Origin: Eledone cirrhosa | Lineage: Eukaryota | NCBI GenBank assembly: GCA_964016885.1 | Contig: OZ024740.1 | Span: 39,680,001-39,744,000, forward strand | Length of the DNA stretch: 64,000 bases | Reading direction: 5' to 3' | Part shown: positions 18,691 to 45,868 of the stretch, piece after piece | How the letters are laid out: every line of letters begins with the position of its first letter | How positions within the stretch are numbered: the first letter of the stretch is position 1 | Notes under the pieces: model-generated | What the model saw: only the letters and a program-made list of their open reading frames with translations | Databases searched by the model: none | What the model was told of the DNA's origin: nothing | Made by a program: the position numbers and the translations under genes

Positions 18691-19487
18691 CCCCCACCCC
18701 CAGAGTAATATTCTCTATCATTTATTTGTTTGTCAATGATTAAAAGATTCTTCTAAAATTAGGCTAATCACAAATAAATTGTGAGAGCAGGTAATTCTTT
18801 CACAGTTGACTGCACTTGGTACTGACTAAACTACACTAGGGTCATTCTTCTAATAGAATTACTTCTCTGCCCTAATTGAAATGAATTAATATTTCTTATC
18901 TGAACAAGTAAGCAACTAGCAGTTTTCTATAAATACTCAATTATGGATACTATACGGTCTACTAACAACAAAATACTCTCAGCAAAACTCATTTATCTAG
19001 TTGTCTCAATTAGTCAGTTGAAAAGAAAATAACACCATTATGGCTTTGTTAACCATCTTAATTGTTTAGATGTAAATTCGAAAAATATACCACATTATCA
19101 TACATGTATATAACGTAACATGATAAAAGTACATCATGTATATATATATAATGTAACATGACAGAAGCATATTATATCTATGTATATATAATTCTAACAT
19201 GATATAAGTATATTATATATATATATATAATGTAACATGATTGAAGTGTATTATATCTATATATACAATGTAACATATGTATTATATCTATATATACAAT
19301 GTAACATGTATTATATCTATATATACAATGTAACATGTAATATATCTATATATACAATGTAATATGTATTATATCTATATATACAATGTAACATGTATTA
19401 TATCTATATATACAATGTAACATGTATTATATCTATATATACAATGTAACATGTAATATATCTATATATACAATGTAACATGTATTA

Positions 19488-20049
19488 CAATAATAATAAT
19501 AATGAAATTATTGTGTAAAGTGCTCAGGTGCACTACAACTCGTCAATATAGTACATAGAATAATACACAAATGTCAGGGAAGTACATGTTTGTATGTGTT
19601 AGCTGTAGTGTTGGCGGATCTCGGGAAGCATGGAGGCCTTAAAGGATGCAGTGTCTCGACAGCTAACAACTGATGCAGGTAGTTTGTTCCATGCTTCAGC
19701 AACTCTGAGCGTGAAAAAATGTTTCCGAAAGTCATGGGAACTGTGCTGTTTTCTTACTTTGTGGGCATGTCCACGTGTGTTAGACACATGGAAATCGAAA
19801 AGGCACTCAGGGTTGTTGTTGGCAACATGGTTAACAATTTTGTGGGTGTTTACCAAGTCAGTTGCCAGGCGTCGGAGCTTCAATGAATCCATGCCCAGGG
19901 AAGCAAGGGGCTCAGAGTAAGGTAGATGCCTGATGGAGGGTATTCGCTTGGTTGCACGTCTCTGAACAGTTTCCAGGCGGTCAATGTCCTGAGCAAGATA
20001 GGGGTTCCAGACTGGTGATGCAAATTCTAAGTGTGGTCGCACCATAGCT
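19488..20049 (-). mobile_element. CR1-group LINE 3' fragment with (TTA)n tail
   Basis: YKAMVRPHLEFASPVWNPY...LETVQRRATK...TRGH...FFTLRVAEAWNKLP is typical of the CR1-group ORF2 C-terminus. The ORF's N-terminus is translated satellite. Confidence 0.9.
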
Positions 20050-20401
20050 TTATATCTATATATACAATGTAACATATGTATTATATCTATATATACAATG
20101 TAACATGTAATATATCTATATATACAATGTAACATGTATTATATCTATATATACAATGTAACATGTATTATATCTATATATACAATGTAACATGTATTAT
20201 ATCTATATATACAATGTAACATGTATTATATTTATATATACAATGTAACATGTATTATATCTATATATACAATGTAACATGTAATATATCTATATATACA
20301 ATGTAACATGTATTATATCTATATATACAATGTAACATGTATTATATCTATATATACAATGTAACATGTATTATATCTATATATACAATGTAACATGTAT
20401 T

Positions 20402-20923
20402 CATCATCACCGTTTTACGTCCGTTCTTCCACGCTAGCATGGGTTAGACGGGTTGTCTTGTTGTGGGCAGTGTCTGGTCGGCTGACCATGCCTTGCTCAT
20501 ACAGGAACTGATCTGGCTTGATTTCTACAGCTGGATGCCCTTCCTAACACCAACCTCATTTACAGTGAGTGCTGGGTGCTTTTTCGTGGCGCCTACACGT
20601 CCACTTTACAGTGTGGGCTGGGTGCTTTTTTGCCGTGGCACCTCCACGACCACCTTGTTTATATGCTTCAGCATGTACCCATGGGAGGTCGGGTACCCTG
20701 TATTACTGCGTGACGCCAGAAGTCACGGTCGTGTGTCATTGACTTTGAGAGGTGTAGTTGGGTAAGGTCGGCTTTTATCACCTCATCCCAAGTCATCTTG
20801 GGTCTCCCCACTCCGCGGTTTCCATCAACTTCTAGTGCTCTGCACCTTTTTATGCAGCTGTCATCCTTCATACGCATCACATGTCCATACCAGCGTAACC
20901 GCCTCTCCTGCACGGCGGTTACG
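20402..20923 (-). mobile_element. RTE family A short 3' fragment with fold-back 5' junction
   Basis: Matches the 12220 copy apart from an 18-nt 3' UTR deletion and a point change. Confidence 0.95.
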
Positions 20924-22078
20924 TATTATATCTATATATACAATGTAACATGTATTATATCTATATATACAATGTAACATATGTATTATATCTATATATA
21001 CAATGTAACATGTAATATATCTATATATACAATGTAACATGTATTATATCTATATATACAATGTAACATATGTATTATATCTATATATACAATGTAACAT
21101 GTAATATATCTATATATACAATGTAACATGTATTATATCTATATATACAATGTAACATATGTATTATATCTATATATACAATGTAACATGTAATATATCT
21201 ATATATACAATGTAACATGTATTATATCTATATATACAATGTAACATATGTATTATATCTATATATAGAATGTAACATGTATTATATCTATATATACAAT
21301 GTAACATATGTATTATATCTATATATACAATGTAACATGTATTATATCTATATATACAATGTAACATATGTATTATATCTATATATACAATGTAACATGT
21401 AATATATCTATATATACAATGTAACATGTATTATATCTATATATACAATGTAACATGTAATATATCTATATATACAATGTAACATGTATTATATCTATAT
21501 ATACAATGTAACATGTAATATATCTATATATACAATGTAACATATGTATTATATCTATATATACAATGTAACATGTAATATATCTATATATACAATGTAA
21601 CATGTATTATATCTATATATACAATGTAACATGTATTATATCTATATATACAATGTAACATGTATTATATCTATATATACAATGTAACATGTATTATATC
21701 TATATATACAATGTAACATGTAATATATCTATATATACAATGTAACATATGTATTATATCTATATATACAATGTAACATGTAATATATCTATATATACAA
21801 TGTAACATGTATTATATCTATATATACAATGTAACATGTATTATATCTATATATACAATGTAACATGTAATATATCTATATATACAATGTAACATGTATT
21901 ATATCTATATATACAATGTAACATGTATTATATCTATATATACAATGTAACATGTATTATATCTATATATACAATGTAACATGTAATATATCTATATATA
22001 CAATGTAACATATGTATTATATCTATATATACAATGTAACATATGTATTATATCTATATATACAATGTAACATGTATT

Positions 22079-24717
22079 CATCATCATCATCATCAACGTT
22101 TAACGTCCGTGTTCCATGCTTGCATGGGTTTGGACGGGGGTAGTCCCACTTGAGGCAAGAGTGATTGTCTTGCTCGCATAGGACTGTCTGGCAGGTTTTC
22201 TACAGTTGGATGCCCTTCCTAACACCAACCACATTTACAGTGTGGGTCTGGGAGGTTTTTACCGTGTTGCCTACACGGCCACATTACAGCGTGGACTGTG
22301 TGTTTTTTTGTCGTGACACCTACACGATCTCATTTGTTTCGGCCTGGATGGCGCGGCACCAACATAACTTTACATAGAACGGGGTGGTGTGGATGGGGTG
22401 GGGGTGGTGGCGGGACGGGGTGTATTTTGTTAGAGATGCCTACTGGCAAGGCGGGTCTTCTCTGTTACTGAGTACCGCCAAAGGTCTCGGTCCAGTGACA
22501 TTGTCTTGGAGAGGTGTAAGTGTGTGAGGTCGGAGTTTATCAGCTCATCCCAGGTTTTTCTAGGTCTGCCTATTCCGTGGCTACCGTCTATCTTCATTGC
22601 CCTGCACTTTGTTATACAGCTATCGACTTTCATGCGCATCACGTGTCCATACCAACGCAGCCTTCTCTCGAGTAAACAACATCTGATCCCTCTTATCTCT
22701 AATTTTTTCCTTAGTTCGTTTATGCTTTGCCGTTCACGTATATTACTGTTACACATCCAGCGGAGCATGCAAGCTTCGTTCCTCTCTAGTCTGCGTATAT
22801 CCTCTGCACACAATGCCCAGGTCTCACTACCATGCAACATTGCTGTTCGTATGCAGGCATCGTACAACCTGCCTTTCATTTTTAGGGAGAACCCTTTAGC
22901 AGCTAATAGTGGTATAAGCTCTCTGAACTTTTTCCACCCAGTTCTGACTCTAGCTACAGTACTTTCAGAGCATCCTCCCCCACTGCTGATTTTATCGCCC
23001 AGGTAACGGAAGCTGTCCACTATTTCTATAGAACCCTCTGCGCAATTGAAAGAGCTAGTATTTTGTGGGCACTTGCTGCTACTTATTGCACCAGAACACC
23101 GGCCACATGTAAAATCTATGTTCTTAGTTAGCTTACCTGTGATCCCACTACATCTTTTATGCACCCATACTTTGCATTTAGGACATAAAATGGAGTTTCT
23201 ACCTACGCCTTTCCTACACACCGAGCACGACCATTTCCCAGAAGGGACCGCCGCCTTGTTTTCTTTCCTACAAACTAGAACTTTGGTCTTAGCCAGGTTA
23301 ATTTTAAGTCCTTTTGACTCTAGGCCGTGCTTCCATGTTTGGAATTTCTTCTCTAGCTCGGCCATTGATTCCGCTATGAGTGTCAGGTCGTCTGCGTATA
23401 GGAGTTCCCATGGGCAGCCTGTCTTGATCTCCTCTGTTATAGCCTGAAGGGCAATAATAAATAGTAGGGGGCTGAGAACAGAGCCCTGATGGACACCAAC
23501 TTTTACGCTAAACTCTTCACTATATTCGTTGTTAATTCTAACCTTGCTGACTGCTTCTTTATACATGGCTTGTATAGCCCTCACAAGCCATTCGTCAACG
23601 CCTAGTTTTCTAAGAGCCCACCAGATAATGGAGCGGGGGACTCTGTCGAAGGCTTTCTCCAGGTCGACAAAAGCTAAGTAGAGGGGTTTACCTTTAGCTA
23701 GGTACTTCTCCTGTAGTTGTCGTACTATGAACAGAGCGTCTGTGGTGCTTTTGCCCGACACAAACCCGAACTGCATTTCATCTAGGTCAATTCTCTCTCT
23801 GATTAGTTGCGCTATTACTTTTTCCGTGACCTTCATGACCTGGTCGATTAATTTAATGCCTCTATAGTTACTCCTATCTAGGGCGTCTCCTTTACCCTTA
23901 TAACAGTTAACGATGATGCTGCTATGCCAGTCCTTCGGAACAACCCCATTCTGTACGACTTGGTTAACTATGCGGGTGACCATGGTGTGTCCCACCGTGC
24001 CAGATGCCTTCAGCATCTCAGCAACTATTTCCGAAGGCCCAGCCGCCTTACCCGTCTTCATATCCTTGATTGCCTTACTTATTATACTCCCCTCGACTAA
24101 CACTGCTGGTCCCTCTATTGGGTCGATATGGGGGAGACTGTCTTTCTCCCATTTGTTCTCCTCATTTAGTAGCCTTTCATAGTGACACTTCCAAGCTACC
24201 TTCTTATCAGTGTCGGTGATGGCAAGTATGCCATCATCGTTAAGTACACACTTCTCCCCGACAATATCACGGTTTTCCTTGACGCATTGCCTAGCAATCC
24301 TGAACACCTCACGTTTTTGGTCATCGCGTTGTAGAACATGCTTGAACTTTCTTTCCTCAGCTTCCCTTCTTGCTAAGTACACTTCTCTCCTAGCTTCCCT
24401 CCTGGCCACTTGATAGTCTACTCTACTTCCCCCATCCCGCCATACTTTCCAAGCCTGCTTTTTGGCCTTAATTGACCCCTCCACCCTACTGTTCCACCAC
24501 CATGTTACTCTCCTCCTGCCTACAGGCCTGCTCCAGCCACAAACTTCGTCTGTCGCCAACAGCAGGTTTGCTTTCAGAAATTCCCACTCTCCCTCTATAT
24601 TGTCCGACTCTAGATGCTCTTCCTTACTGTCGAAAGCATCAAGTAATATGCTTTGAAATTTATTTCTGGCTGTGGGGTCCTTTAGTTTCCATATTTTCCT
24701 CCTGAGGATAGTCCTCT
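22079..24717 (-). mobile_element. RTE family B, 5'-truncated, with uninterrupted RT and PHD reading frame
   Basis: ORF 22430..24772 contains NYRGIKL, QFGF, FVDLEKAFDRV, GVHQGSVLSP, YADD and YLG. No endonuclease. A 28-nt deletion removes the normal stop codon. The first about 18 aa are satellite. Confidence 0.96.
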
Positions 24718-26124
24718 TTATATCTATATATACAATGTAACATGTATTATATCTATATATACAATGTAACATGTATTATATCTATATATACAATGTAACA
24801 TGTATTATATCTATATATACAATGTAACATGTATTATATCTATATATAGAATGTAACATGTATTATATCTATATATACAATGTAACATATGTATTATATC
24901 TATATATACAATGTAACATGTAATATATCTATATATACAATGTAACATGTAATATATCTATATATACAATGTAACATATGTAATATATCTATATATACAA
25001 TGTAACATGTATTATATCTATATATACAATGTAACATGTATTATATCTATATATACAATGTAACATGTATTATATCTATATATACAATGTAACATATGTA
25101 TTATATCTATATATACAATGTAACATGTATTATATCTATATATACAATGTAACATGTATTATATCTATATATACAATGTAACATGTAATATATCTATATA
25201 TACAATGTAACATGTATTATATCTATATATACAATGTAACATGTAACATGTAATATATCTATATATACAATGTAACATGTATTATATCTATATATACAAT
25301 GTAACATGTATTATATCTATATATACAATGTAACATATGTAATATATCTATATATACAATGTAACATGTATTATATCTATATATACAATGTAACATGTAT
25401 TATATCTATATATACAATGTAACATGTATTATATCTATATATACAATGTAACATGTATTATATCTATATATACAACGTAACATGTATTATATCTATATAT
25501 ACAATGTAACATATGTAATATATCTATATATACAATGTAACATGTAATATATCTATATATACAATGTAACATGTATTAAATCTATATATACAATGTAACA
25601 TGTAATATATCTATATATACAATGTAACATGTATTATATCTATATATACAATGTAACATGTAATATATCTATATATACAATGTAACATGTAATATATCTA
25701 TATATACAATGTAACATGTAATATATCTATATATACAATGTAACATGTAATATATCTATATACACAATGTAACATATGTATTATATCTATATATACAATG
25801 TAACATGTATTATATCTATATATATACAATGTAACATGTAATATATCTATATATACAATGTAACATATGTATTATATCTATATATACAATGTAACATGTA
25901 ATATATCTATATATACAATGTAACATATGTATTATATCTATATATACAATGTAACATGTATTATATCTATATATACAATGTAACATGTAATATATCTATA
26001 TATACAATGTAACATGTATTATATCTATATATACAATGTAACATGTATTATATCTATATATACAATGTAACATGTATTATATCTATATATACAATGTAAC
26101 ATGTAATATATCTATATATACAAT

Positions 26125-27828
26125 CAAAAGTACCACAGACGCTCTTTTCATAGTACGACAACTACAAGAGAAGTACCTAGCTAAAGGTAAACCCCTCTAC
26201 TTAGCTTTTGTCGACTTGGAGAAAGCCTTCGACAGAGTCCCCCGCTCCATTATCTGGTGGGCTCTTAGAAAACTAGGCGTTGACGAATGGCTTGTGAGGG
26301 CCATACAAGCCATGTATAAAGAAACAGTCAGCAAGGTTAGAATTAACAACGAATATAGTGAAGAGTTTAGCGTAAAAGTCGGCGTCCATCAGGGCTCTGT
26401 TCTCAGTCCACTACTATTTATTATTGCCCTTCAGGCCATAACAGAGGAGTTCAAGACAGGCTGCCCATGGGAACTCCTATACGCAGACGACCTGACACTC
26501 ATAGCGGAATCAATGGCCGAGCTAGAGAAGAAATTCCAAACATGGAAGCACGGCCTAGAGTCAAAAGGACTTAAAATTAACCTGGCTAAGACCAAAGTAC
26601 TAGTTTGTAGGAAAGAAAACAAGGCGGCGGTCCCTTCTGGGAAATGGTCGTGCTCGGTGTGTAGGAAAGGCGTAGGTAGAAACTCCATTTTATGTCCTAA
26701 ATGCAAAGTATGGGTGCATAAAAGATGTAGTGGGATCACAGGTAGGCTAACTAAGAACATAGATTTTACATGTGGCCGGTGCTCTGGTGCAATAAGTAGC
26801 AGCAAGTGCCCACAAACTACTAGCTCTTTCAATTGCGCAGAGGGTTCTATAGAAATAGTGGACAGCTTCCGTTACCTGGGCGATAAAATCAGCAGTGGGG
26901 GAGGGTGCTCTGAAAGTACTGTAGCTAGAGTCAGAACTGGTTGGAAAAAGTTCAGAGAGCTTATACCACTATTAGCTGCTAAAGGGTTCTCACTAAAAAT
27001 GAAAGGCAGGTTGTACGATGCCTGCATACGAACAGCAATGCTGCATGGCAGTGAGACCTGGGCATTGTGTGCAGAGGATATACGCAGACTAGAGAGGAAC
27101 GAAGCTTGCATGCTCCGCTGGATGTGTAACAGTAATATACGTGAACGGCAAAGCATAAACGAACTAAGGAATAAATTAGAGATAAGAGGGATCAGATGTT
27201 GTTTACTCGAGAGAAGGCTACGTTGGTATGGACACGTGATGCGCATGAAAGTCGATAGCTGTATAACAAAGTGCAGGGCAATAAAGATAGACGGTAGTCA
27301 CGGAATAGGCAGACCTAGAAAAACCTGGGACGAGCTGATAAACTCCGACATCACACACTTACACCTCTCCAAGACAATGTCACTGGACCGAGACCTTTGG
27401 CGGTACTCAGTAACAGAGAAGACCCGCCTTACCTAAATATATAGTAAAACCTACTCCAGCCAGTAGGCATCTCTAACAAATACACCCCGTCCCACCACCC
27501 CCACCCGATCCACACCACCCCGTTCTATGTAAAGTTATGTTGGTGCCGCGCCATCGAGGCCGAAACAAATGAGATCGTGTAGGTGTCACGACAAAAAAAC
27601 ACACAGTCCACGCTGTAATGTGGCCGTGTAGGCAACACGGTAAAAACCTCCCAGACCCACACTGTAAATGTGGTTGGTGTTAGGAAGGGCATCCAACTGT
27701 AGAAAACCTGCCAGACAGTCCTATGCGAGCAAGACAATCACTCTTGCCTCAAGTGGGACTACCCCCGTCCAAACCCATGCAAGCGTGGAACACGGACGTT
27801 AAACGCTGATGATGATGATGATGATGAT
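26125..27828 (+). mobile_element. RTE family B, 5'-truncated
   Basis: ORF 26072..27436 is nearly identical to the 22430 ORF. (GAT)n tail; target duplication ATACAAT. Confidence 0.96.
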
Positions 27829-27946
27829 ACAATGTAACATGTATTATATCTATATATAGAATGTAACATGTATTATATCTATATATAGAATGTAACATGT
27901 ATTATATCTATATATAGAATGTAACATGTATTATATCTATATATAC

Positions 27947-30672
27947 TAGTCAGTTAGATTTTATCCTCATCAGAGGACGTGACAGATGGACGGTCGTAAA
28001 CACAAAAGCCTTCCCTAGTGAGGAATGTACATCCCAACATAGCTTAGTTGTCAGCGACCTCACGGTCAGAACTAGACGAACCCGGAAACAGAGGCCAACC
28101 TGGAGAAGAAAGATCTGGAAGCTGAAAGTCCCCTCAACCAGTAACAGATTTAACAATATTTTACTCAACGCCTACGACAGTAAAGAAGAACAGATAGAGA
28201 CATTTAACGTAGAAGAGAACTGGGAGTTCCTAAAAAATAATTTACTAGAGGCGACGGATGAGGTCTGTGGCTGGAGTAAGACCTCAAGCAGGAGGAGAGT
28301 GACTTGGTGGTGGAACAATAAGGTAGATGAAGCAGTTAAGGCCAAGAGACAGGCATGGAAAGAATGGAAGAACGGGGGGAGCTGGGTACATTACATAGAG
28401 ACCAAGAGGGAAGCTAGGCGACAAGTATACTTAGCTAGGAGGGAAGCAGAGGATAGAAAATTCAAGCATGTTTTACAACGTGAGGACCAGAAACAGGAGG
28501 TATTCAAGATTGCGAGGCAGTGTGTCAGAGATAGTTGTGATGTCATTGGAGAGAAGTGTATCCGGAATGATAAAGGTGAGCTTGCCCTCACAAGTACTGA
28601 GAAGAAAGATGCATGGAAGAGTCATTATGATAGATTACTAAATGAGGAGAATGCATGGGAAGAAGAGACCCTACCCCAAGTCGACCCTATAGAGGGACCA
28701 GCAGTACAAGTCAGCAGCAGCGTGGTAAGTAAGGCAATCAAAGATATGAAGATAGGGAAGGCAACCGGTCCATCGAGTATAGCTGCCGAGATGCTGAAGG
28801 CATCTGGGTCTGTAGGTCACACTATAACCACACGTATCGTTAACCAGGTAATACTAGAAGGGGCCATACCAAAAGATTGGTGCAGTAGCATCATTGTCAA
28901 CTGCTACAAAGGTAAAGGTGATGCACTAGATAGAGGAAACTATAGAGGTATAAAGTTGATGGACCAGGTCATGAAAGTAACAGAAAGAGTTATAGCACAG
29001 CTGATTAGGGACCGGGTGAAAATAGACGAGATGCAATTTGGGTTTGTACCAGGAAGAGGCACCACTGATGCCCTCTTCCTTGTGAGGCAATTACAGGAAA
29101 AGTACCTAGCTAAAAGTAAGCCACTCTACTTGGCATTTGTCGACCTTGAGAAAGCCTTTGACAGAGTTCCACGTGTTGTAATCTGGTGGGCTCTTAGAAA
29201 ACTAGGAGTAGATAAATGGCTTGTGAAAGCGGTACAAGCCATGTATAGGGGAGCAGTCAGCAAAGTTAGGATTAGCAATGAGTATAGCGAGGAATTTAGC
29301 GTACAGGTTGGGGTCCACCAGGCCTCTGTTCTTAGCCCTCTCCTGTTCATCATAGTCCTGCAGGCAATAACGGAGGAGTTTAAGACCGGATGCCCATGGG
29401 AACGCCTGTATGCTGATGACCTCGCACTCATAGCTGAATCTATGGTAGAACTAGAGAATAAATTCCAAACCTGGAAGCAGGGACTAGAAAGAAAGGGTCT
29501 CAAAGTCAACATGACAAAGACTAAGGTCCTTGTAAGTAGACGAGAAAACAGAACCCAGATCCCCTCAGGGAAATGGCCTTGCTCAGTATGTAGGAAAGGT
29601 GTAGGTAGGAACTCCATTATCTGCCCCAAATGCAAACAATGGGCACACAAGAGATGTAGCGGGATCTCAGGAGGCTTAACTAAGAATGTAGGATTCACAT
29701 GCAGCAGCTGTGCTGAAACAGCAAGCAGCAAACAGCCACAGGAAACAAGTACCACCAATCTCTGGGAGGGCCCTGTAGAAACAGTAGACAGCTTCTGCTA
29801 CCTAGGTGACCGAATTAGCAACGGAGGTGGGTGTTCAGAAAGTACAATAACTAGGGTAAGAACGGGATGGAAGAAGTTTAGGGAACTGCTACCACTGCTA
29901 GCTGCAAAAGGCTTCTCCCTCAGAATGAAAGGCAGACTGTATGATGCGTGTATCCGAACAGCGATGTTGCATGGTAGTGAGACCTGGGCGCTGAAGGTGG
30001 AAGACTTACATAGATTAGAGAGAAACAAAGCCTGCATGCTCCGATGGATGTGTAACAGTAATAAACGTGAACGACAAAGCATAAATGAATTGAGAGAGAG
30101 ACTGAGCATAAGAGGAATCAAATGCTGTGTGCAGGAGAGGCGGTTGCGTTGGTATGGACATGTGATGCGTCTGAAGGAAAACAGCTGCATAAAAAGGTGC
30201 AGAGCACTAGAAGTTGATGGAAACCGCGGAGTGGGGAGACCCAAGATGACCTGGGATGAGGTGATAAAAGCCGACCTTACCCAATTACACCTCTCAAAGA
30301 CAATGACACACAACCGTGACTTCTGGCGTCACGCAGTAATACAGAGTACCCGACCTCCCATGGGTACAAGCTGAAGCATATAAACAATATGCCCCCACAC
30401 CGCAAGGTGGTCGTGGAGGTGCCACGGCAAAAAAGCACCCAGCCCACACTGTAAAGTGGACGTGTAGGCGCCACGAAAAAGCACCCAGCACTCACTGTAA
30501 ATGAGGTTGGTGTTAGGAAGGGCATCCAGCTGTAGAAATCAAGCCAGATCAGTTCCTGTATGAGCAAGGCATGGTCAGCCGACCAGACACTGCCCACAAC
30601 AGGACAACCCGTCTAACTCATGCTAGCGTGGAAGAACGGACGTAAAACGATGATGATGATGATGATGATGAT
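27947..30672 (+). mobile_element. RTE family A, 5'-truncated, slightly diverged
   Basis: Frame continuous with ORF 28299..30374. Motif changes QGSV to QASV and WELL to WERL. (GAT)n tail; ATAC flanks both ends. Confidence 0.96.
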
Positions 30673-31305
30673 ACAATGTAACATATGTATTATATCTATA
30701 TATACAATATAACATATGTATTATATCTATATATAGAATGTAACATATGTATTATATCTATATATACAATTTAACATGTATTATATCTATATATACAATG
30801 TAACATGTAATATATCTATATATACAATGTAACATATGTATTATATCTATATATACAATGTAACATGTAATATATCTATATATATACAATGTAACATGTA
30901 TTATATCTATATATACAATGTAACATGTATTATATCTATATATACAATGTAACATGTATTATATCTATATATACAATGTAACATGTAGTATATCTATATA
31001 TATACAATGTAACATGTATTATATCTATATATACAATGTAACATGTATTATATCTATATATACAATGTAACATGTATTATATCTATATATACAATGTAAC
31101 ATGTATTATATCTATATATACAATGTAACATGTATTATATCTATATATACAATGTAACATGTATTATATCTATATATAGAATGTAACATGTATTATATCT
31201 ATATATACAATGTAACATGTATTATATCTATATATACAATGTAACATGTATTATATCTATATATACAATGTAACATGTAATATATCTATATATACAATGT
31301 AACAT

Positions 31306-31497
31306 CCAAGGGTGGTGGATTGGCAGTATCGGTAGAGGGTCGGACGCCATGCTTTCAAGCATAGTTACGTCCCTTTATGATCTGAGTTCAAATCCCGCCG
31401 AGGTTGACTTTGCCTTTCATCCTTACGGGGTCGATAAAATAAAGTACCAGTAATGCACTGGATAATTGCTGGCCTTGTGCCTAAAGTAGAAACAATT
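31306..31497 (+). mobile_element. tRNA-derived SINE with a Deu/Nin-like central domain
   Basis: B-box GAGTTCAAATCC followed by GTTGACTTTGCCTTTCATCCTTACGGGGTCGATAAAATAAAGTACCAG, which resembles the Deu/Nin domain as I recall it. Inserted in the satellite. Confidence 0.75.
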
Positions 31498-32492
31498 ATA
31501 TCTATATATACAATGTAACATATGTATTATATATATCTATATATACAATGTAACATGTATTATATCTATATATACAATGTAACATGTATTATATCTATAT
31601 ATACAATGTAACATATGTATTATATATATCTATATATACAATGTAACATATGTATTATATCTATATATACAATGTAACATATGTATTATATCTATATATA
31701 CAATGTAACATATGTATTATATCTATATATACAATGTAACATATGTATTATATCTATATATACAATGTAACATATGTATTATATCTATATATACAATGTA
31801 ACATGTATTATATCTATATATACAATGTAACATATCTATATATACAATGTAACATGTATTATATCTATATATACAATGTAACATATGTATTATATCTATA
31901 TATACAATGTAACATATGTATTATATCTATATATACAATGTAACATGTATTATATCTATATATACAATGTAACATGTATTATATCTATATATACAATGTA
32001 ACATATGTATTATATCTATATATACAATGTAACATATGTATTATATCTATATATACAATGTAACATATGTATTATATATATCTATATATACAATGTAACA
32101 TGTATTATATCTATATATACAATGTAACATGTATTATATCTATATATACAATGTAACATATGTATTATATATATCTATATATACAATGTAACATATGTAT
32201 TATATCTATATATACAATGTAACATATGTATTATATCTATATATACAATGTAACATATGTATTATATCTATATATACAATGCAACATGTATTATATCTAT
32301 ATATACAATGTAACATGTATTATATCTATATATACAATGTAACATGTATTATATCTATATATACAATGTAACATATGTATTATATCTATATATACAATGT
32401 AACATGTAATATATCTATATATACAATGTAACATGTATTATATCTATATATACAATGTAACATATGTATTATATCTATATATACAATGTAAC

Positions 32493-32565
32493 GCACTGGG
32501 GTTGATTTAATCGATTTACCCTACCACCAAAAATTGCTAGCCTTGTGCCTAAAGTAGAAACAATT
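32493..32565 (+). mobile_element. 3' fragment of the same SINE family as 31306
   Basis: Shares GCACTGG and AATTGCTRGCCTTGTGCCTAAAGTAGAAACAATT with the 31306 copy. Confidence 0.75.
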
Positions 32566-32590
32566 ATATCTATGTATATAATGTGACATG

Positions 32591-35554
32591 ATCATCATCA
32601 TCATCATCATCACCGTTTTACGTCCGTTCTTCCACGCTAGCATGGGTTAGACGGGTTGTCCTGTTGTGGGCAGTGTCTGGTCGGCTGACCATGCCTTGCT
32701 CATACAGGAACTGATCTGGCTTGATTTCTACAGCTGGATGCCCTTCCTAACACCAACCTCATTTACAGTGAGTGCTGGGTGCTTTTTCGTGGCGCCTACA
32801 CGTCCACTTTACAGTGTGGGCTGGGTGCTTTTTTGCCGTGGCACCTCCACGACCACCTTGCGGTGGGGGGGGGGGGCATATTGTTTATATGCTTCAGCAT
32901 GTACCCATGGGAGGTCGGGTACCCTGTATTACTGCGTGACGCCAGAAGTCACGGTCGTGTGTCATTGACTTTGAGAGGTGTAGTTGGGTAAGGTCGGCTT
33001 TTATCACCTCATCCCAAGTCATCTTGGGTCTCCCCACTCCGCGGTTTCCATCAACTTCTAGTGCTCTGCACCTTTTTATGCAGCTGTCATCCTTCATACG
33101 CATCACATGTCCATACCAGCGTAACCGCCTCTCCTGCACGCAGCATTTGATTCCTCTTATGCTCAGTCTCTCTCTCAATTCATTTATGCTTTGTCGTTCA
33201 CGTATATTACTGTTACACATCCATCGGAGCATGCAGGCTTCGTTTCTCTCTAATCTACGTAAGTCTTCCACCTTCAGCGCCCAGGTCTCACTACCATGCA
33301 ACATCGCTGTTCGGATACACGCATCATACAGTCTGCCTTTCATTCTGAGGGAGAAGCCTTTTGCAGCTAGCAGTGGTAGTAGTTCCCTAAACTTCTTCCA
33401 TCCCGTTCTTACCCTAGTTATTGTACTTTCTGAGCACCCACCTCCGTTGCTAATTCGGTCACCTAGGTAGCAGAAGCTGTCTACTGTTTCTACAGGGCCC
33501 TCCCAGAGATTGGTGGTACTTGTTTCCTGTGGCTGTTTGCTTGCTGTTTCAGCACAGCTGCTGCATGTGAATCCTACATTCTTAATTAAGCTTCCTGAGA
33601 TCCCGCTACATCTCTTGTGTACCCATTGTTTGCATTTGGGGCAAAGAATGGAGTTCCTACCTACACCTTTCCTACATACTGAGCAAGGCCATTTCCCTGA
33701 GGGGATCTGGGTTCTGTTTTCTCGTCTACTTATAAGGACCTTAGTCTTTGTCATGTTGACTTTGAGGCCCTTTCTCTCTAGTCCCTGCTTCCAGGTTTGG
33801 AATTTATTCTCTAGTTCTACCATAGATTCAGCTATGAGTGCGAGGTCATCAGCATACAGGAGTTCCCATGGGCATCCGGTCTTAAACTCCTCCGTTATTG
33901 CCTGCAGGACTATGATGAACAGGAGAGGGCTAAGAACAGAGCCCTGGTGGACCCCAACCTGTACGCTAAATTCCTCGCTATACTCATTGCCAATCCTAAC
34001 TTTGCTGACTGCTCCCCTATACATGGCTTGTACCGCTTTCACAAGCCATTCATCTACTCCTAGTTTTCTAAGAGCCCACCAGATTACTGCACGTGGAACT
34101 CTGTCAAAGGCTTTCTCAAGGTCGACAAATGCCAAGTAGAGTGGCTTACTTTTAGCTAGGTACTTTTCCTGTAATTGCCTCACAAGGAAGAGCGCATCAG
34201 TGGTGCCTTTCCCTGGAACAAACCCAAATTGCATCTCGTCTATATTCACCCGGTCCCTAATCAGCTGTGCTATAACTCTTTCTGTTACTTTCATGACCTG
34301 GTCCATCAACTTTATACCTCTATAGTTTCCTCTATCTAGTGCATCGCCTTTACCTTTGTAGCAGTTGACAATGATGCTACTGCACCAATCTTTTGGTATG
34401 GCCCCCTCTAGTATTACCTGGTTAACGATACGTGTGGTTATAGTGTGACCTACAGACCCAGATGCCTTCAGCATCTCGGCAGCTATACCCGATGGACCGG
34501 TTGCCTTCCCTATCTTCATATCTCTGATTGCCTTACTTACTACGCTGCCGCTGACTTGTACTGCTGGTCCCTCTATAGGGTCTACGTGGGGTAGGGTCTC
34601 TTCTTCCCATGCATTCTCCTCATTTAGTAATCTATCATAATGACTCTTCCATGCATCTTTCTTCTCAGCACTTGTGAGGGCAAGCTCACCTTTATCATTC
34701 CGGATACACTTCTCTCCAATGACATCACAACTATCTCTGACACACTGCCTCGCAATCTTGAATACCTCCTGTTTCTGGTCCTCACGTTGTAAAACATGCT
34801 TGAATTTTCTATCCTCTGCTTCCCTCCTAGCTAAGTATACTTGTCGCCTAGCTTCCCTCTTGGTCTCTATGTAATGTACCCTGCTCCCCCCGTTCTTCCA
34901 TTCTTTCCATGCCTGTCTCTTGGCCTTGACTGCTTCATCTACCTTATTGTTCCACCACCAAGTCACTCTCCTCCTGCTTGAGGTCTTACTCCAGCCACAG
35001 ACCTCATCCGTCGCCTCTAGTAAGTTATTTTTTAGGAACTCCCAGTTCTCTTCTACGTTAAATGTCTCTATCTGTTCTTCTTTACTGTCGTAGGCGTTGA
35101 GTAAAATATCTTTAAATCTGTTACTGGTTGAGGGGACTTTCAGCTTCCAGATCTTTCTTCTCCAGGTTGGCCTCTGTTTCAGGGCTCGTCTAGTTCTGAC
35201 CGTGAGGTCGCTGACAACTAAGCTATGTTGGGATGTACATTCCTCACTAGGGAAGGCTTTTGTGTTTACGACCGTCCATCTGTCACGTCCTCTGATGAGG
35301 ATAAAATCTAACTGACTAGAGTGCTCCCCTGATCTATAGGTGATCAGGTGGTTGTCGGGTTTTTTAAAGTTTGTGTTACATATCGACATGTCATTGGCGT
35401 CGCAGAATTCTAGAAGTCTGAATCCTTCCTCATTCCTTGTGCCAACTCCATGGCCTCCATGTACTCTATTGAAGCCGTCGCAGTGTTTACCTACGCAGTG
35501 TTTACCTACGCAGTGTTTACCTACGCAGTGTTTACCTACGCAGTGTTTACCTAC
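32591..35554 (-). mobile_element. Longest RTE family A copy: partial APE endonuclease, RT with PHD, 3' UTR
   Basis: 831-aa ORF 32894..35389 (NTNFKK...ITY...SQLDFIL...SQHSLV endonuclease end; YADD). The frame extends upstream through VGKHCDGFNRVHGGHGVGTRNEEG; truncated within the endonuclease. Confidence 0.97.
35480..35554. repeat. Five perfect copies of the 15-mer GCAGTGTTTACCTAC at the LINE 5' junction
   Basis: Units start at 35480, 35495, 35510, 35525 and 35540. Confidence 0.97.
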
Positions 35555-35629
35555 ATTTTATTTATATATAATGTCCTGGAGTGGATGCATAAAGATTGTG
35601 TATTACAAGACCCCAGAAAGAGTTCAAAA

Positions 35630-44060: not shown

Positions 44061-45738
44061 AATCTCTATGCAGCTTAATTGATCTGGATGTGGCCTAGCC
44101 CCCTTAAAGTGTAAGAAGTTAAGGGTCAAAAAACTTGCATGAGGTGTGTGGGGGGAGGGGTCTTCTCTGAAGACTTTCTGCTGTCCAGCTCTCCTGAGAG
44201 TTTCTGACTACTATCCTCTTCATATCTTTCCCGTGTGTGTGTATTTCTGCCATGTTTACTTATACAGCTCCATGTGTATATGTGTGTGTGTGTGTGTCAG
44301 CCTCTCATTAAATTTGGGGTTCATTTGATTTATGGAAACACTACTAAAAATAACACGTGAAACCTGTAATATTTTTTGCATATTCATTTCTGTTAGTTTT
44401 TGGTTGTTGTTTCCGAAAAATAATTGAAAGTTAATGCAGTGAGTCCTCATACAATGAAATTTGACTCAACTTAGATCCATCATTAACAGAAAAATTTTCA
44501 ATTTTTAGATAAATAATAGTGACATTTGGAAGATGCAAGCAAAAAATGCTACCGAAGAATAGACCTTCATTTGGAAGAAAATCTCAAAGTTATGGCAAAG
44601 CAGCTACAGAGGGAGAATGAAAATGAAGAGCAGTGACTAGAAAGACTCCAAAAACTCAAGAAAAGCAACAGCGAAATATAGACAAAATGAATCAGAACAA
44701 AGATCAAAAATGCTTGCTGATGATATTGTTATTTTGATTTACAAAATATATGCTAAAATCAAACACTTTCATTCCAACCAGATACATACTAACTGATAAC
44801 TTTAGTGTTCAGTTGCTAACTCAAATGTGACAGTAGGTATCAAGTGTACATATAGATGGCTGTTGGGTACAGAAGACTGAGGACATACTATATAGATAGT
44901 AACAGGGTACAGAAGACTGAGGAGGATATACTGAAGAGGGAGAATGCGTCAATTAAAGTACTTGTATGTAGTCACTGAACTTGCTGGAGAAAACAGTCAC
45001 ATAACCCTCAAATTATAGTTAACTATCTCTAAATAAAGGATGATATATTGGACAATATAGTTCCCGATATAGAAACAGGTCAAGGATGGAACAGCTTTGA
45101 TCGTAAGTCTGTTAGATCATGGATCAACTAGATCAGGAATCACTCAGGCTACAACTACTTGCCTATCACTACTCTTGTCTCTCCTTATCACTACTACCAT
45201 ACCACTAAAATTTTCTGATCCTATCTCCAAACCTCAAGGACTCTCTTCTATTCCATATTTTCCCTACATACATCAACATGTACAAGTTGAAGCTAAGCAT
45301 CAACCATAATTACTTCACTAGTCTGCAAATACTTGTAAAACACGAATGTTTCTTCTACTTGGACTAAATGAAAAAAAAATTAAAATTCCCAGTTTCCATG
45401 AATACTAATATTTGTTATTAAACAGAAACATTTAAAATAACCCAGTAGAAGAAGGCTACAGTGGAGGTAGACCAAGGAAGACCTGAGCAGAGGTGGTGAG
45501 AGGTGACCTGATATCGCTGACACTCAGAGGAAATAAGTAAAGAACGCAGCAAGTGGAGAAATGCTGTGATGAAATGGATCTGTCCAACCCATGCAAGCAT
45601 TGAAAACATGTAAAAACCATGATGATGATGATGATGATAGCGGAGCTGATAGAGTAGAGGACAGTAGTTGTCTATAGATAGCTGATGATGGTGATCATGA
45701 TCAGTTGAGTTATATAAAACTGTTTTAGCATAGCTTAC

Positions 45739-45868
45739 ATTTTCATGTGTCATATAACGTAACATACGTATTTCCCTGTAGGTTCTCTTGGCATGGATGG
45801 ACGTTAGGAATGGACGACTTAGTTTCTTTATAGCAACATCTTTTCCTGTCACTACATCGTAAGCAGAG
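45739..45868 (-). CDS. MAPK14: p38 MAP kinase internal exon (equivalent to exon 2): [43 protein letters not shown]
   Basis: tgttgcag|CTCTGCT...GAAAAT|gtaagc. 130 nt, phase 2-0; contains the VAIK lysine and the alphaC glutamate. Confidence 0.97.

What the first reader, a model, noticed from the sequence alone, without database searches (positions are those of the whole stretch)
19090..35575. Satellite acting as a retrotransposon landing pad with fixed insertion registers
Seen: eight insertions from four families lie in or at the edge of one 29-bp array. Both plus-strand RTEs (families B and A) end ...GATG|ATACAATG (27826, 30670). Both internal minus-strand RTEs (A and B) end ...GATG|AATACATG (20402, 22079), and the CR1 tail lies about one base from that site (19488). 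Both Nin-like SINEs end at ATT|ATATC. So each orientation uses one register, and the RTE tails abut ATACA on either strand. The two other satellites of more than 10 kb contain no insertions. Inference: sequence-preferential target-primed insertion (nick preference plus tail microhomology) by a clade usually regarded as non-specific.
Basis: partly seen in the sequence, partly recalled or inferred. Interest (0 to 1): 0.75.

Follow-up and report, generated by a model that had tools for sequence, protein, structure and literature searches.

The report
LINE pile-up in TA-rich intronic minisatellite
Eight jumping-gene copies sit in one 5-kb AT-rich repeat found nowhere else in this genome; the five RTE-type copies likely landed there because their family cuts next to alternating TA runs all over the genome, so the repeat is probably an incidental hotspot and not a dedicated target.

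Summary
The eight insertions and shared registers are real and independent. The 29-bp array is a single-locus minisatellite (109 of 109 genome hits lie in this window), inside a p38-like kinase gene. The two RTE families have over 20,000 young copies. In 45 of 73 rebuilt sites elsewhere they sit at a T|A step in alternating TA DNA (3.4% of background positions). ATACA is not the signal: 255 of 3,067 junctions carry it, and a neighbouring 62.6-kb array with 1,492 ATACA sites is empty. Both array registers read TATAT-NN-ATAT|A on the element's strand, though only two copies per orientation support this. An unrelated 18-bp satellite gives the power: 48 of 51 and 4 of 4 insertions in register, with 4-6-bp duplications. 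The SINE register is its own ATTAT end. Pile-ups of 3-4 copies recur in other TA arrays; this one still exceeds a crude model. RTE target preference is in print (Tn-TA); here the upstream T-run was not found outside the 18-mer. The scan had already noted this preference on other DNA of this genome.

The parts
19094..19246 (+). Degenerate 38-bp AT-rich units at the left edge; likely the older repeat from which the 29-mer grew (inferred)
19247..19487 (+). 29-bp array block 1 (8 units); unit TGTATTATATCTATATATACAATGTAACA
19488..20049 (-). 5'-truncated CR1-like LINE end with (ATT)n tail; apparent 3-bp duplication TAA plus one extra G (modulo the unit)
   Evidence: family label recalled
20050..20401 (+). 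array block 2 (12 units)
20402..20922 (-). RTE-A 3' fragment, 0.5 kb; junction GATG|AATAC; apparent duplication AATAC (5 bp); about 9 nt inverted internal copy at the 5' end
20923..22078 (+). array block 3 (39 units, 29/31-bp variants)
22079..24717 (-). RTE-B, 2.6 kb, 5'-truncated, open frame of 781 aa with RT and PHD finger; junction GATG|AATAC; apparent duplication AA; 99.1% to the nearest fetched copy
24718..26124 (+). array block 4 (48 units)
26125..27826 (+). RTE-B, 1.7 kb; junction GATG|ATACAATG; apparent duplication ATACAAT (7 bp); 99.9% to the nearest fetched copy
27827..27945 (+). array block 5 (4 units)
27946..30670 (+). RTE-A, 2.7 kb, open frame of 818 aa; junction GATG|ATACAATG; apparent duplication ATA(C), 3-4 bp
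30671..31305 (+). array block 6
31306..31499 (+). Near-complete SINE of a family with at least 40,012 copies; its own end ATTAT overlaps the only ATTAT of the unit; no duplication, 2 nt of unit missing
31495..32492 (+). array block 7 (many 31-bp variants)
32493..32567 (+). 3' 75 nt of a related SINE subfamily; same ATTAT overlap; 4 nt of unit missing
32564..32590 (+). degenerate unit at the right edge, like the left-edge 38-mers
32591..35554 (-). RTE-A, 2.9 kb, junction GAT|CATGTC (neither register); five tandem copies of a 15-nt internal piece at its 5' end (35479-35554); 99.8% to the nearest fetched copy
45736..45867 (-). Exon of a p38-MAPK-like kinase gene (approximate bounds); later exons (DFGLARMTDSEMTGYVATRWY) lie about 6.8 and 8.8 kb left of the window, so the array is intronic
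   Evidence: 'p38-like' is recalled

Best explanation
The five RTE copies sit at T|A steps beside alternating TA DNA because their endonuclease likely binds and nicks such sites anywhere in the genome, and the repeat, which offers that site once per strand per unit, likely turns this loose preference into fixed registers and a local pile-up. Shown: both families insert mostly into pre-existing TA runs; duplications are short (4-6 bp) and start at an A that usually follows T; in this array both registers have the same 5' context on the element's strand, TATAT-NN-ATAT|A, that is the two ends of one 10-bp near-palindrome (ATATCTATAT). Inferred: the APE domain nicks the strand opposite that A, and the freed 3' end pairs with 1-3 bases of the (GAU)n RNA tail, which sets whether the junction reads GAT|AC or GA|AT; pairing does not choose the site. 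The SINE register is likely a separate effect of a 5-base match (ATTAT) to the SINE's own end; the CR1-like copy is a single event.
For: Array is single-locus while the families have at least 8,829 and 11,436 young tails. 1,674 of 3,067 five-GAT tails continue ATAT. 77 of 110 fetched tails outside the satellites have alternating 3' flanks. 45 of 73 rebuilt empty sites score at least 12 of 16 on an alternating-TA template against 13,717 of 399,360 background positions, about 18-fold; 5' flanks are TA runs too, so the runs are targets and not tails. That score ranks this array at 2.4 times the genome mean and the four empty neighbouring satellites at 0.24-0.50, and puts the observed plus site at the top score (13, tied) and the minus site third (12). 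In an unrelated 18-bp satellite 48 of 51 plus-orientation and 4 of 4 minus-orientation independent insertions use one AT (46 by pattern, 2 variant units added by eye), and the A/G variant of the duplicated unit matches on both sides in 18 of 19. The unit's 3-base tail matches (ATG, GAT) are not the sites used. Eleven clusters of 3 or more and three of 4 or more tails within 16.5 kb among 129 listed tails, against 1.0 and 0.04 for uniform placement; of the ten cluster regions fetched, most are TA-rich arrays.
Against: The crude model expects only 0.12 young RTE copies in 5.1 kb, or 0.6-0.8 after a 5-6-fold local excess; five are seen (P about 0.001 at 0.76). The same model gives the 18-bp satellite 0.6 times the mean though it holds about 4 times the mean (66 listed tails in 2.35 Mb, counted by eye). 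The minus junction type GA|A is rare genome-wide (287, against 3,067 plus 685), and higher-scoring minus sites were not used. ATAT is only 2.0-fold enriched over background AT+H words, no more than ATACA (1.8-fold), so the signal is the long run and not a short word. Only two copies per orientation. A 1.47-kb TA run 46 kb left of the window has no tail. No biochemistry was done. Rebuilt sites inside TA runs are ambiguous in phase-length, and 13 of 73 showed no duplication.
Confidence: 0.72

Rival explanations
1. The array is a special, array-specific landing pad (ATACA recognised, or a chromatin or structural state of this repeat that draws in several LINE machineries).
For: Five young RTE copies in 5.1 kb exceed the simple model even after local correction; three element types are present; it lies in an intron of a kinase gene that may be open chromatin.
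Against: Single locus. ATACA follows 255 of 3,067 tails, and 22 of 30 fetched ATACA junctions are simply in alternating runs. A 62.6-kb neighbour with 1,492 ATACA sites has no tail, this array has 291. Similar clusters occur in other TA arrays.
Confidence: 0.12
2. The endonuclease is nearly non-specific and registers come from tail-to-target pairing alone.
For: Explains the two SINEs well (ATTAT once per unit); most RTE tails overlap the target by A, AT or ATG.
Against: The unit's longer tail matches (ATG twice on plus; GAT and ATG on minus) are unused, and the minus RTEs overlap by one base only. The 18-mer has many AT and GAT words but one is used, with a 51:4 strand bias.
Confidence: 0.06
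3. This is the published Tn-TA signature unchanged (three or more T one helical turn upstream of TA).
For: Duplications start at A after T, as for Bov-B (PMC13295347 section 3.2). In the 18-mer TTT lies at -11 to -9 on the favoured strand only, which would explain the strand bias. The plus site here has TT at -12/-11.
Against: The minus site of this array has no TT near -10. In 24 non-alternating flanks TTT at -13 to -8 occurs 4 times against 10.6% background (P 0.25, small sample, 10 without a duplication to fix the nick). Most targets are TA runs without T stretches. Duplications are 4-6 bp against 7-15 bp quoted for RTE in PMC6007223.
Confidence: 0.25
4. Shared registers or density are artefacts of array expansion, duplication of one junction, or mis-assembly.
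For: Duplication of element plus flank does occur in tandem arrays here (identical copies in the 18-mer; ten tails at about 1.9-kb spacing at C1:40.00-40.03 Mb). No contig bridged the tested junction, so the assembly was not checked independently.
Against: Each shared register joins an A copy and a B copy that are 75% identical with different 5' ends; the array keeps one orientation throughout; each insertion has its own 5' junction.
Confidence: 0.05

Closest known systems
RTE-clade LINEs and SINEs with the Tn-TA insertion signature (PMC6007223: abstract, Results, first Discussion section; PMC13295347: abstract, Results, section 4.1)
   Same: Single ORF with APE and RT, microsatellite tail, duplication starting at A after T, first target base matching the tail, loose genome-wide preference.
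   Different: Upstream context is mostly an alternating TA run, not a T stretch (T stretch seen only in the 18-mer); duplications 4-6 bp; PHD finger after the RT; preference strong enough to give single-base registers and pile-ups in tandem repeats.
Microsatellite-targeting non-LTR elements: Waldo (ACAY), Mino (AC), Kibi (TC), Koshi (TTC), Dong (TAA) (PMC3812793 passages; PMC4640811 passages)
   Same: Most copies lie in one class of simple repeat; cleavage preference is thought to drive it.
   Different: PMC4640811 places target-specific families mainly in R1, Tx1 and early-branched groups, not RTE; here about a third of copies lie outside TA runs and no fixed long target exists.
Lepidopteran RTE elements with (TGA)n tails (PMC2887409 passages)
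   Same: Same tail triplet, many 5'-truncated copies, multiple opposite-orientation insertions close together in microsatellite loci.
   Different: The passages seen treat the microsatellite as made by the element's tail; here the TA runs flank both ends and pre-date the insertion.
RTE-2_OV of Octopus vulgaris (PMC9115989, section 6 and passages)
   Same: Single ORF of about 1,100 aa with EN, RT and a zinc finger, microsatellite 3' end. The window's repeats look octopod-like (recall, not tested).

Membership tests
RTE-clade LINE | Single long ORF with APE endonuclease then RT | tested here: met
   Intact 1,040-aa and 1,166-aa frames in copies L078 and L116 with Exo_endo_phos and RVT_1
RTE-clade LINE | Short 3' UTR ending in a microsatellite tail, no poly(A) | tested here: met
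   (GAT)n tails in the listed copies
RTE-clade LINE | RT phylogeny groups with reference RTE elements against other clades | tested here: inconclusive
   RT 37-48% identical to Bombyx, Solanum, nematode and fish proteins and far from L1/R2, but no row was labelled RTE by its source and no outgroup clades were in the quick tree; RTE identity of those rows is recalled
Tn-TA signature | Duplication starts at A preceded by T | tested here: met
   T at -1 in 85% of 60 rebuilt sites, A fixed by construction; 18 of 19 variant-matched duplications in the 18-mer
Tn-TA signature | Run of about three T one helical turn upstream | tested here: inconclusive
   Present in the 18-mer, absent at this array's minus site, TT only at its plus site; 4 of 24 unique flanks against 10.6% background, P 0.25
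Tn-TA signature | Duplication length in the 7-15-bp range quoted for RTE | tested here: not met
   Peak at 4-5 nt in the 18-mer (16 of 50 assessed 5' junctions); 2-7 bp in this array
Site-specific or satellite-targeting LINE | Most copies in one defined multicopy target | tested here: not met
   5 of more than 20,000 copies are in this array; the array is single-locus
Microsatellite-targeting LINE (Waldo/Mino/Kibi/Dong type) | Near-exclusive insertion in one simple repeat | tested here: inconclusive
   55% of GAT|H junctions read ATAT; 77 of 110 flanks alternating: strong bias, not exclusive
Microsatellite-targeting LINE (Waldo/Mino/Kibi/Dong type) | Endonuclease cleaves the repeat specifically in vitro | not testable with these tools
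   needs a nicking assay
Nin-domain SINE | Conserved Nin central domain | not testable with these tools
   No Rfam match; passages of PMC5804259 gave no sequence
CR1-group LINE | RT phylogeny and domain set | not tested
   Only a 150-aa C-terminal piece, no Pfam hit; label recalled

The most novel reading that the evidence does not exclude
A widespread PHD-finger-bearing RTE lineage has, in this animal, become a TA-microsatellite-seeking retrotransposon whose endonuclease reads about one helical turn of alternating TA upstream of a T|A nick with single-base precision and leaves 4-6-bp duplications: an RTE counterpart of Waldo, Mino and Dong, with tandem arrays as ready-made footprints of its specificity.
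Probability: 0.4. Interest if true: 0.55.

Novelty: new variant of a known kind. Interest (0 to 1): 0.3.

Why it matters
The locus itself is a by-product. The underlying preference matters modestly: it would extend RTE target selection from Tn-TA to TA runs, explain why these abundant young LINEs cluster in and break up AT-rich repeats, and give exact predicted nick positions on two short monomers (29 and 18 bp) and intact ORFs, which makes an endonuclease assay easy to design and to falsify. RTE specificity has been inferred from logos, and PMC13295347 itself calls for retrotransposition assays.

Tried and rejected
ATACA as the target word: rejected. Other arrays of the monomer: none exist. 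One duplicated junction behind the shared registers: rejected. An internal deletion in SINE 1 paired with SINE 2: rejected, SINE 1 is the normal form (97.9% over 193 nt to L138). Inversion between the inverted RTE pairs: no sign, the array keeps one orientation. Laying public contigs on 27700-28100: contigs break in the repeats and none bridges the junction, so neither assembly nor polymorphism was tested. Rfam scan of the SINEs: no match. Tn test in unique flanks: not significant. Literature searches for RTE plus satellite monomer position and plant homeodomain plus RTE returned no papers; searches listed no paper on TA-run targeting by RTE elements; subscription journals and Repbase were not searched, and no supplements were read (those of PMC6007223 and PMC13295347 may hold further logos). 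The careful RT tree did not finish; the quick tree was used.
Full report
What is there. The window is G000:C1:39,680,001-39,744,000 of a 3.0-Gb animal genome. Between 19094 and 35554 a 29-bp AT-rich repeat (about 5.1 kb in eight blocks, with 31-bp variants) is interrupted by a CR1-like end, three RTE-A copies, two RTE-B copies and two SINEs. The repeat is unique to this place: 63 of 63 matches of a 49-mer and 109 of 109 matches of a 22-mer lie in the window, all on one strand. A kinase exon at about 45.8 kb and later exons 6.8 and 8.8 kb left of the window, all on the minus strand, put it in an intron of a p38-like gene (name recalled; the exons between were not located).

The observation. The junctions are as stated, and the insertions are independent: shared registers join A and B copies that are about 75% identical, and every 5' end differs. 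The copies are young, 96.4-99.9% identical to the nearest fetched copy. Apparent duplications, modulo the unit, are 5, 2, 7 and 3-4 bp for the four internal RTEs. The SINE junction is mis-split: 27 of 30 fetched copies end CAATTAT, and ATTAT occurs once per unit, on the plus strand only. The fifth RTE at the edge uses neither register. With two copies per orientation and three or four near-equal sites per strand, the registers in this array alone are not beyond chance.

The elements. Intact copies elsewhere encode one frame of 1,040 aa (A) or 1,166 aa (B) with APE endonuclease, RT and a PHD finger right after the RT. A PHD-type motif is present in 64 of 122 proteins examined and these cluster in a quick RT tree of 109 rows (13 short rows left out). 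At least 8,829 A and 11,436 B tails match a strict anchor, so 5 of more than 20,000 copies are in this array.

Genome-wide preference. Among tails with five GAT units, 3,067 continue with A, C or T; 1,674 of these read ATAT and 255 read ACA; 685 end at GA plus A, C or G, 287 of them GAA (the class G plus non-A was not counted). Against AT words in 200 kb of background from 20 places, ATATAT is 2.0-fold and ATACA 1.8-fold enriched, and 22 of 30 fetched ATACA junctions lie in alternating runs. Of 110 fetched tails outside the two satellites, 77 have alternating 3' flanks (mostly from the first 18 Mb of C1; 40 stretches were chosen partly for unique flanks; two rows were in fact 18-mer). Of 87 with a 5' end I dropped 14 whose 5' flank was element-derived, mis-classed or tailless; 45 of the remaining 73 rebuilt sites score 12 or more of 16 on an alternating-TA template, against 13,717 of 399,360 background positions. 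The 5' flanks are TA runs as well, sometimes with a non-repeat 3' flank (L244, L265), so the runs pre-date the insertion and the upstream side matters.

An independent test of registers. In an unrelated 18-bp satellite at C1:7.2-9.6 Mb, 55 independent events remained after collapsing copies of equal family, orientation and length. Of 51 in one orientation, 46 matched one register by pattern and 2 more are variant units in the same register by eye; 4 of 4 in the other orientation use the same AT. Where the 5' junction lies 3-7 nt past the site, the A/G variant matches on both sides in 18 of 19, so 4-6-bp duplications are real; the other 5' junctions are scattered and suggest target deletions. 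The region holds 66 listed RTE tails (about 16 expected), one listed SINE end (about 31 expected, in a non-satellite island) and one CR1-like end, at the RTE's minus site (counted by eye). A 35-bp minisatellite at C1:3.06 Mb has two RTE-B copies of different length at one register, at the end of its TA run.

Why this array. The template score gives it 2.4 times the genome mean and the four empty neighbouring satellites (33, 18, 11 and 63 kb; no tail in any) 0.24-0.50. The 62.6-kb neighbour has 1,492 ATACA sites against 291 here. On the element's strand both registers read TATAT-NN-ATAT|A, the two ends of one near-palindromic 10-mer (noticed after the fact, n = 4). The unit's longer tail matches are unused, so pairing does not pick the RTE site. 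Pile-ups are common: 11 clusters of three or more and 3 of four or more within 16.5 kb among 129 listed tails, against 1.0 and 0.04 under uniform placement; this array has four tails under the same filter. Most of the ten fetched cluster regions are TA-rich arrays. Against my reading: the model expects 0.12 copies here, or 0.6-0.8 with the 5-6-fold local excess (this uses an assumed 0.7 pass rate for the search filter), and five are seen; it also under-rates the 18-mer. Picking the best of many arrays, a crude model, or open intronic chromatin could each fill the gap; none was tested.

Mechanism. Shown: site preference, short duplications starting at A, 1-3-base overlap with the tail. Inferred from established target-primed reverse transcription: the APE domain nicks the strand opposite the A at a T|A step after about one turn of alternating TA (or, in the 18-mer, TTT one turn upstream), the 3' end pairs briefly with the (GAU)n tail, and second-strand cleavage 4-6 nt away or a small deletion completes it. 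A tandem repeat repeats the best site, giving registers and density.

Known and new. An RTE insertion signature (Tn-TA) and a tail-target correlation are published (PMC6007223 and PMC13295347, sections read). The T|A part is met here; the T run is inconclusive (4 of 24 unique flanks against 10.6%) and the duplication length is shorter than quoted. Microsatellite-targeting LINEs are known from other groups (PMC3812793, PMC4640811, passages). My searches listed no paper on TA-run preference of RTE elements or on PHD fingers in RTE ORFs; PMC9115989 (section 6, passages), PMC13282606 and PMC2887409 (passages) did not show it. The scan had already reported the 18-mer registers several times and one TA pile-up in this genome; I had seen the 18-mer pattern before that look-up, and those notes are not independent support.

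Verdict. Real observation, partly right reading: a loose but sharp TA-run preference of two RTE families made visible by a single-locus minisatellite. New variant of a known kind; interest 0.3.

Noticed in passing
L078:882-4001 and L116:435-3932; window 22430-24775, 26042-27436, 27918-30374, 32894-35557: Both RTE families carry a PHD finger inserted just after the RT domain; 64 of 122 proteins examined have the motif and cluster in an RT tree. Two literature searches found no description; it could read chromatin and bias insertion.
   Followed up: partly
window 45736-45867 (-) and about 6.8-8.8 kb left of the window: A p38-MAPK-like gene spans the window; the 29-bp array and the 17.9-kb 37-bp satellite lie within it.
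   Followed up: partly
G000:C1:7.2-9.6 Mb (L069-L128): 18-bp satellite with RTE tails about 4-fold enriched, 51:4 strand bias, and SINE ends about 30-fold depleted.
   Followed up: yes
G000:C1:40,002,036-40,025,959: Ten RTE tails, same strand, mostly about 1.9 kb apart: probably a tandem amplification of a unit that contains an RTE end.
   Followed up: no
window 35479-35554; L018, L069, L086, L126, L229: 5' junctions with short tandem copies of an internal piece of the element (five 15-nt copies here), suggesting repeated template jumps during 5' joining.
   Followed up: no
L059, L068, L104, L267: RTE-B 3' ends of exactly 206 nt preceded by a duplicated or related piece of RTE 3' UTR in four loci: possibly a non-autonomous or chimeric subfamily.
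   Followed up: no
window 22079-27826 and 27946-35554: Two pairs of long inverted repeats (96% and 98% identical) 1.4 and 1.9 kb apart, with no inversion of the array between them.
   Followed up: partly
L189-L208 (90 kb left and 110 kb right of the window): Nearly half of this 264-kb region is large single-unit satellites (27, 37, 29 and 37 bp), all free of the three element types scanned.
   Followed up: partly
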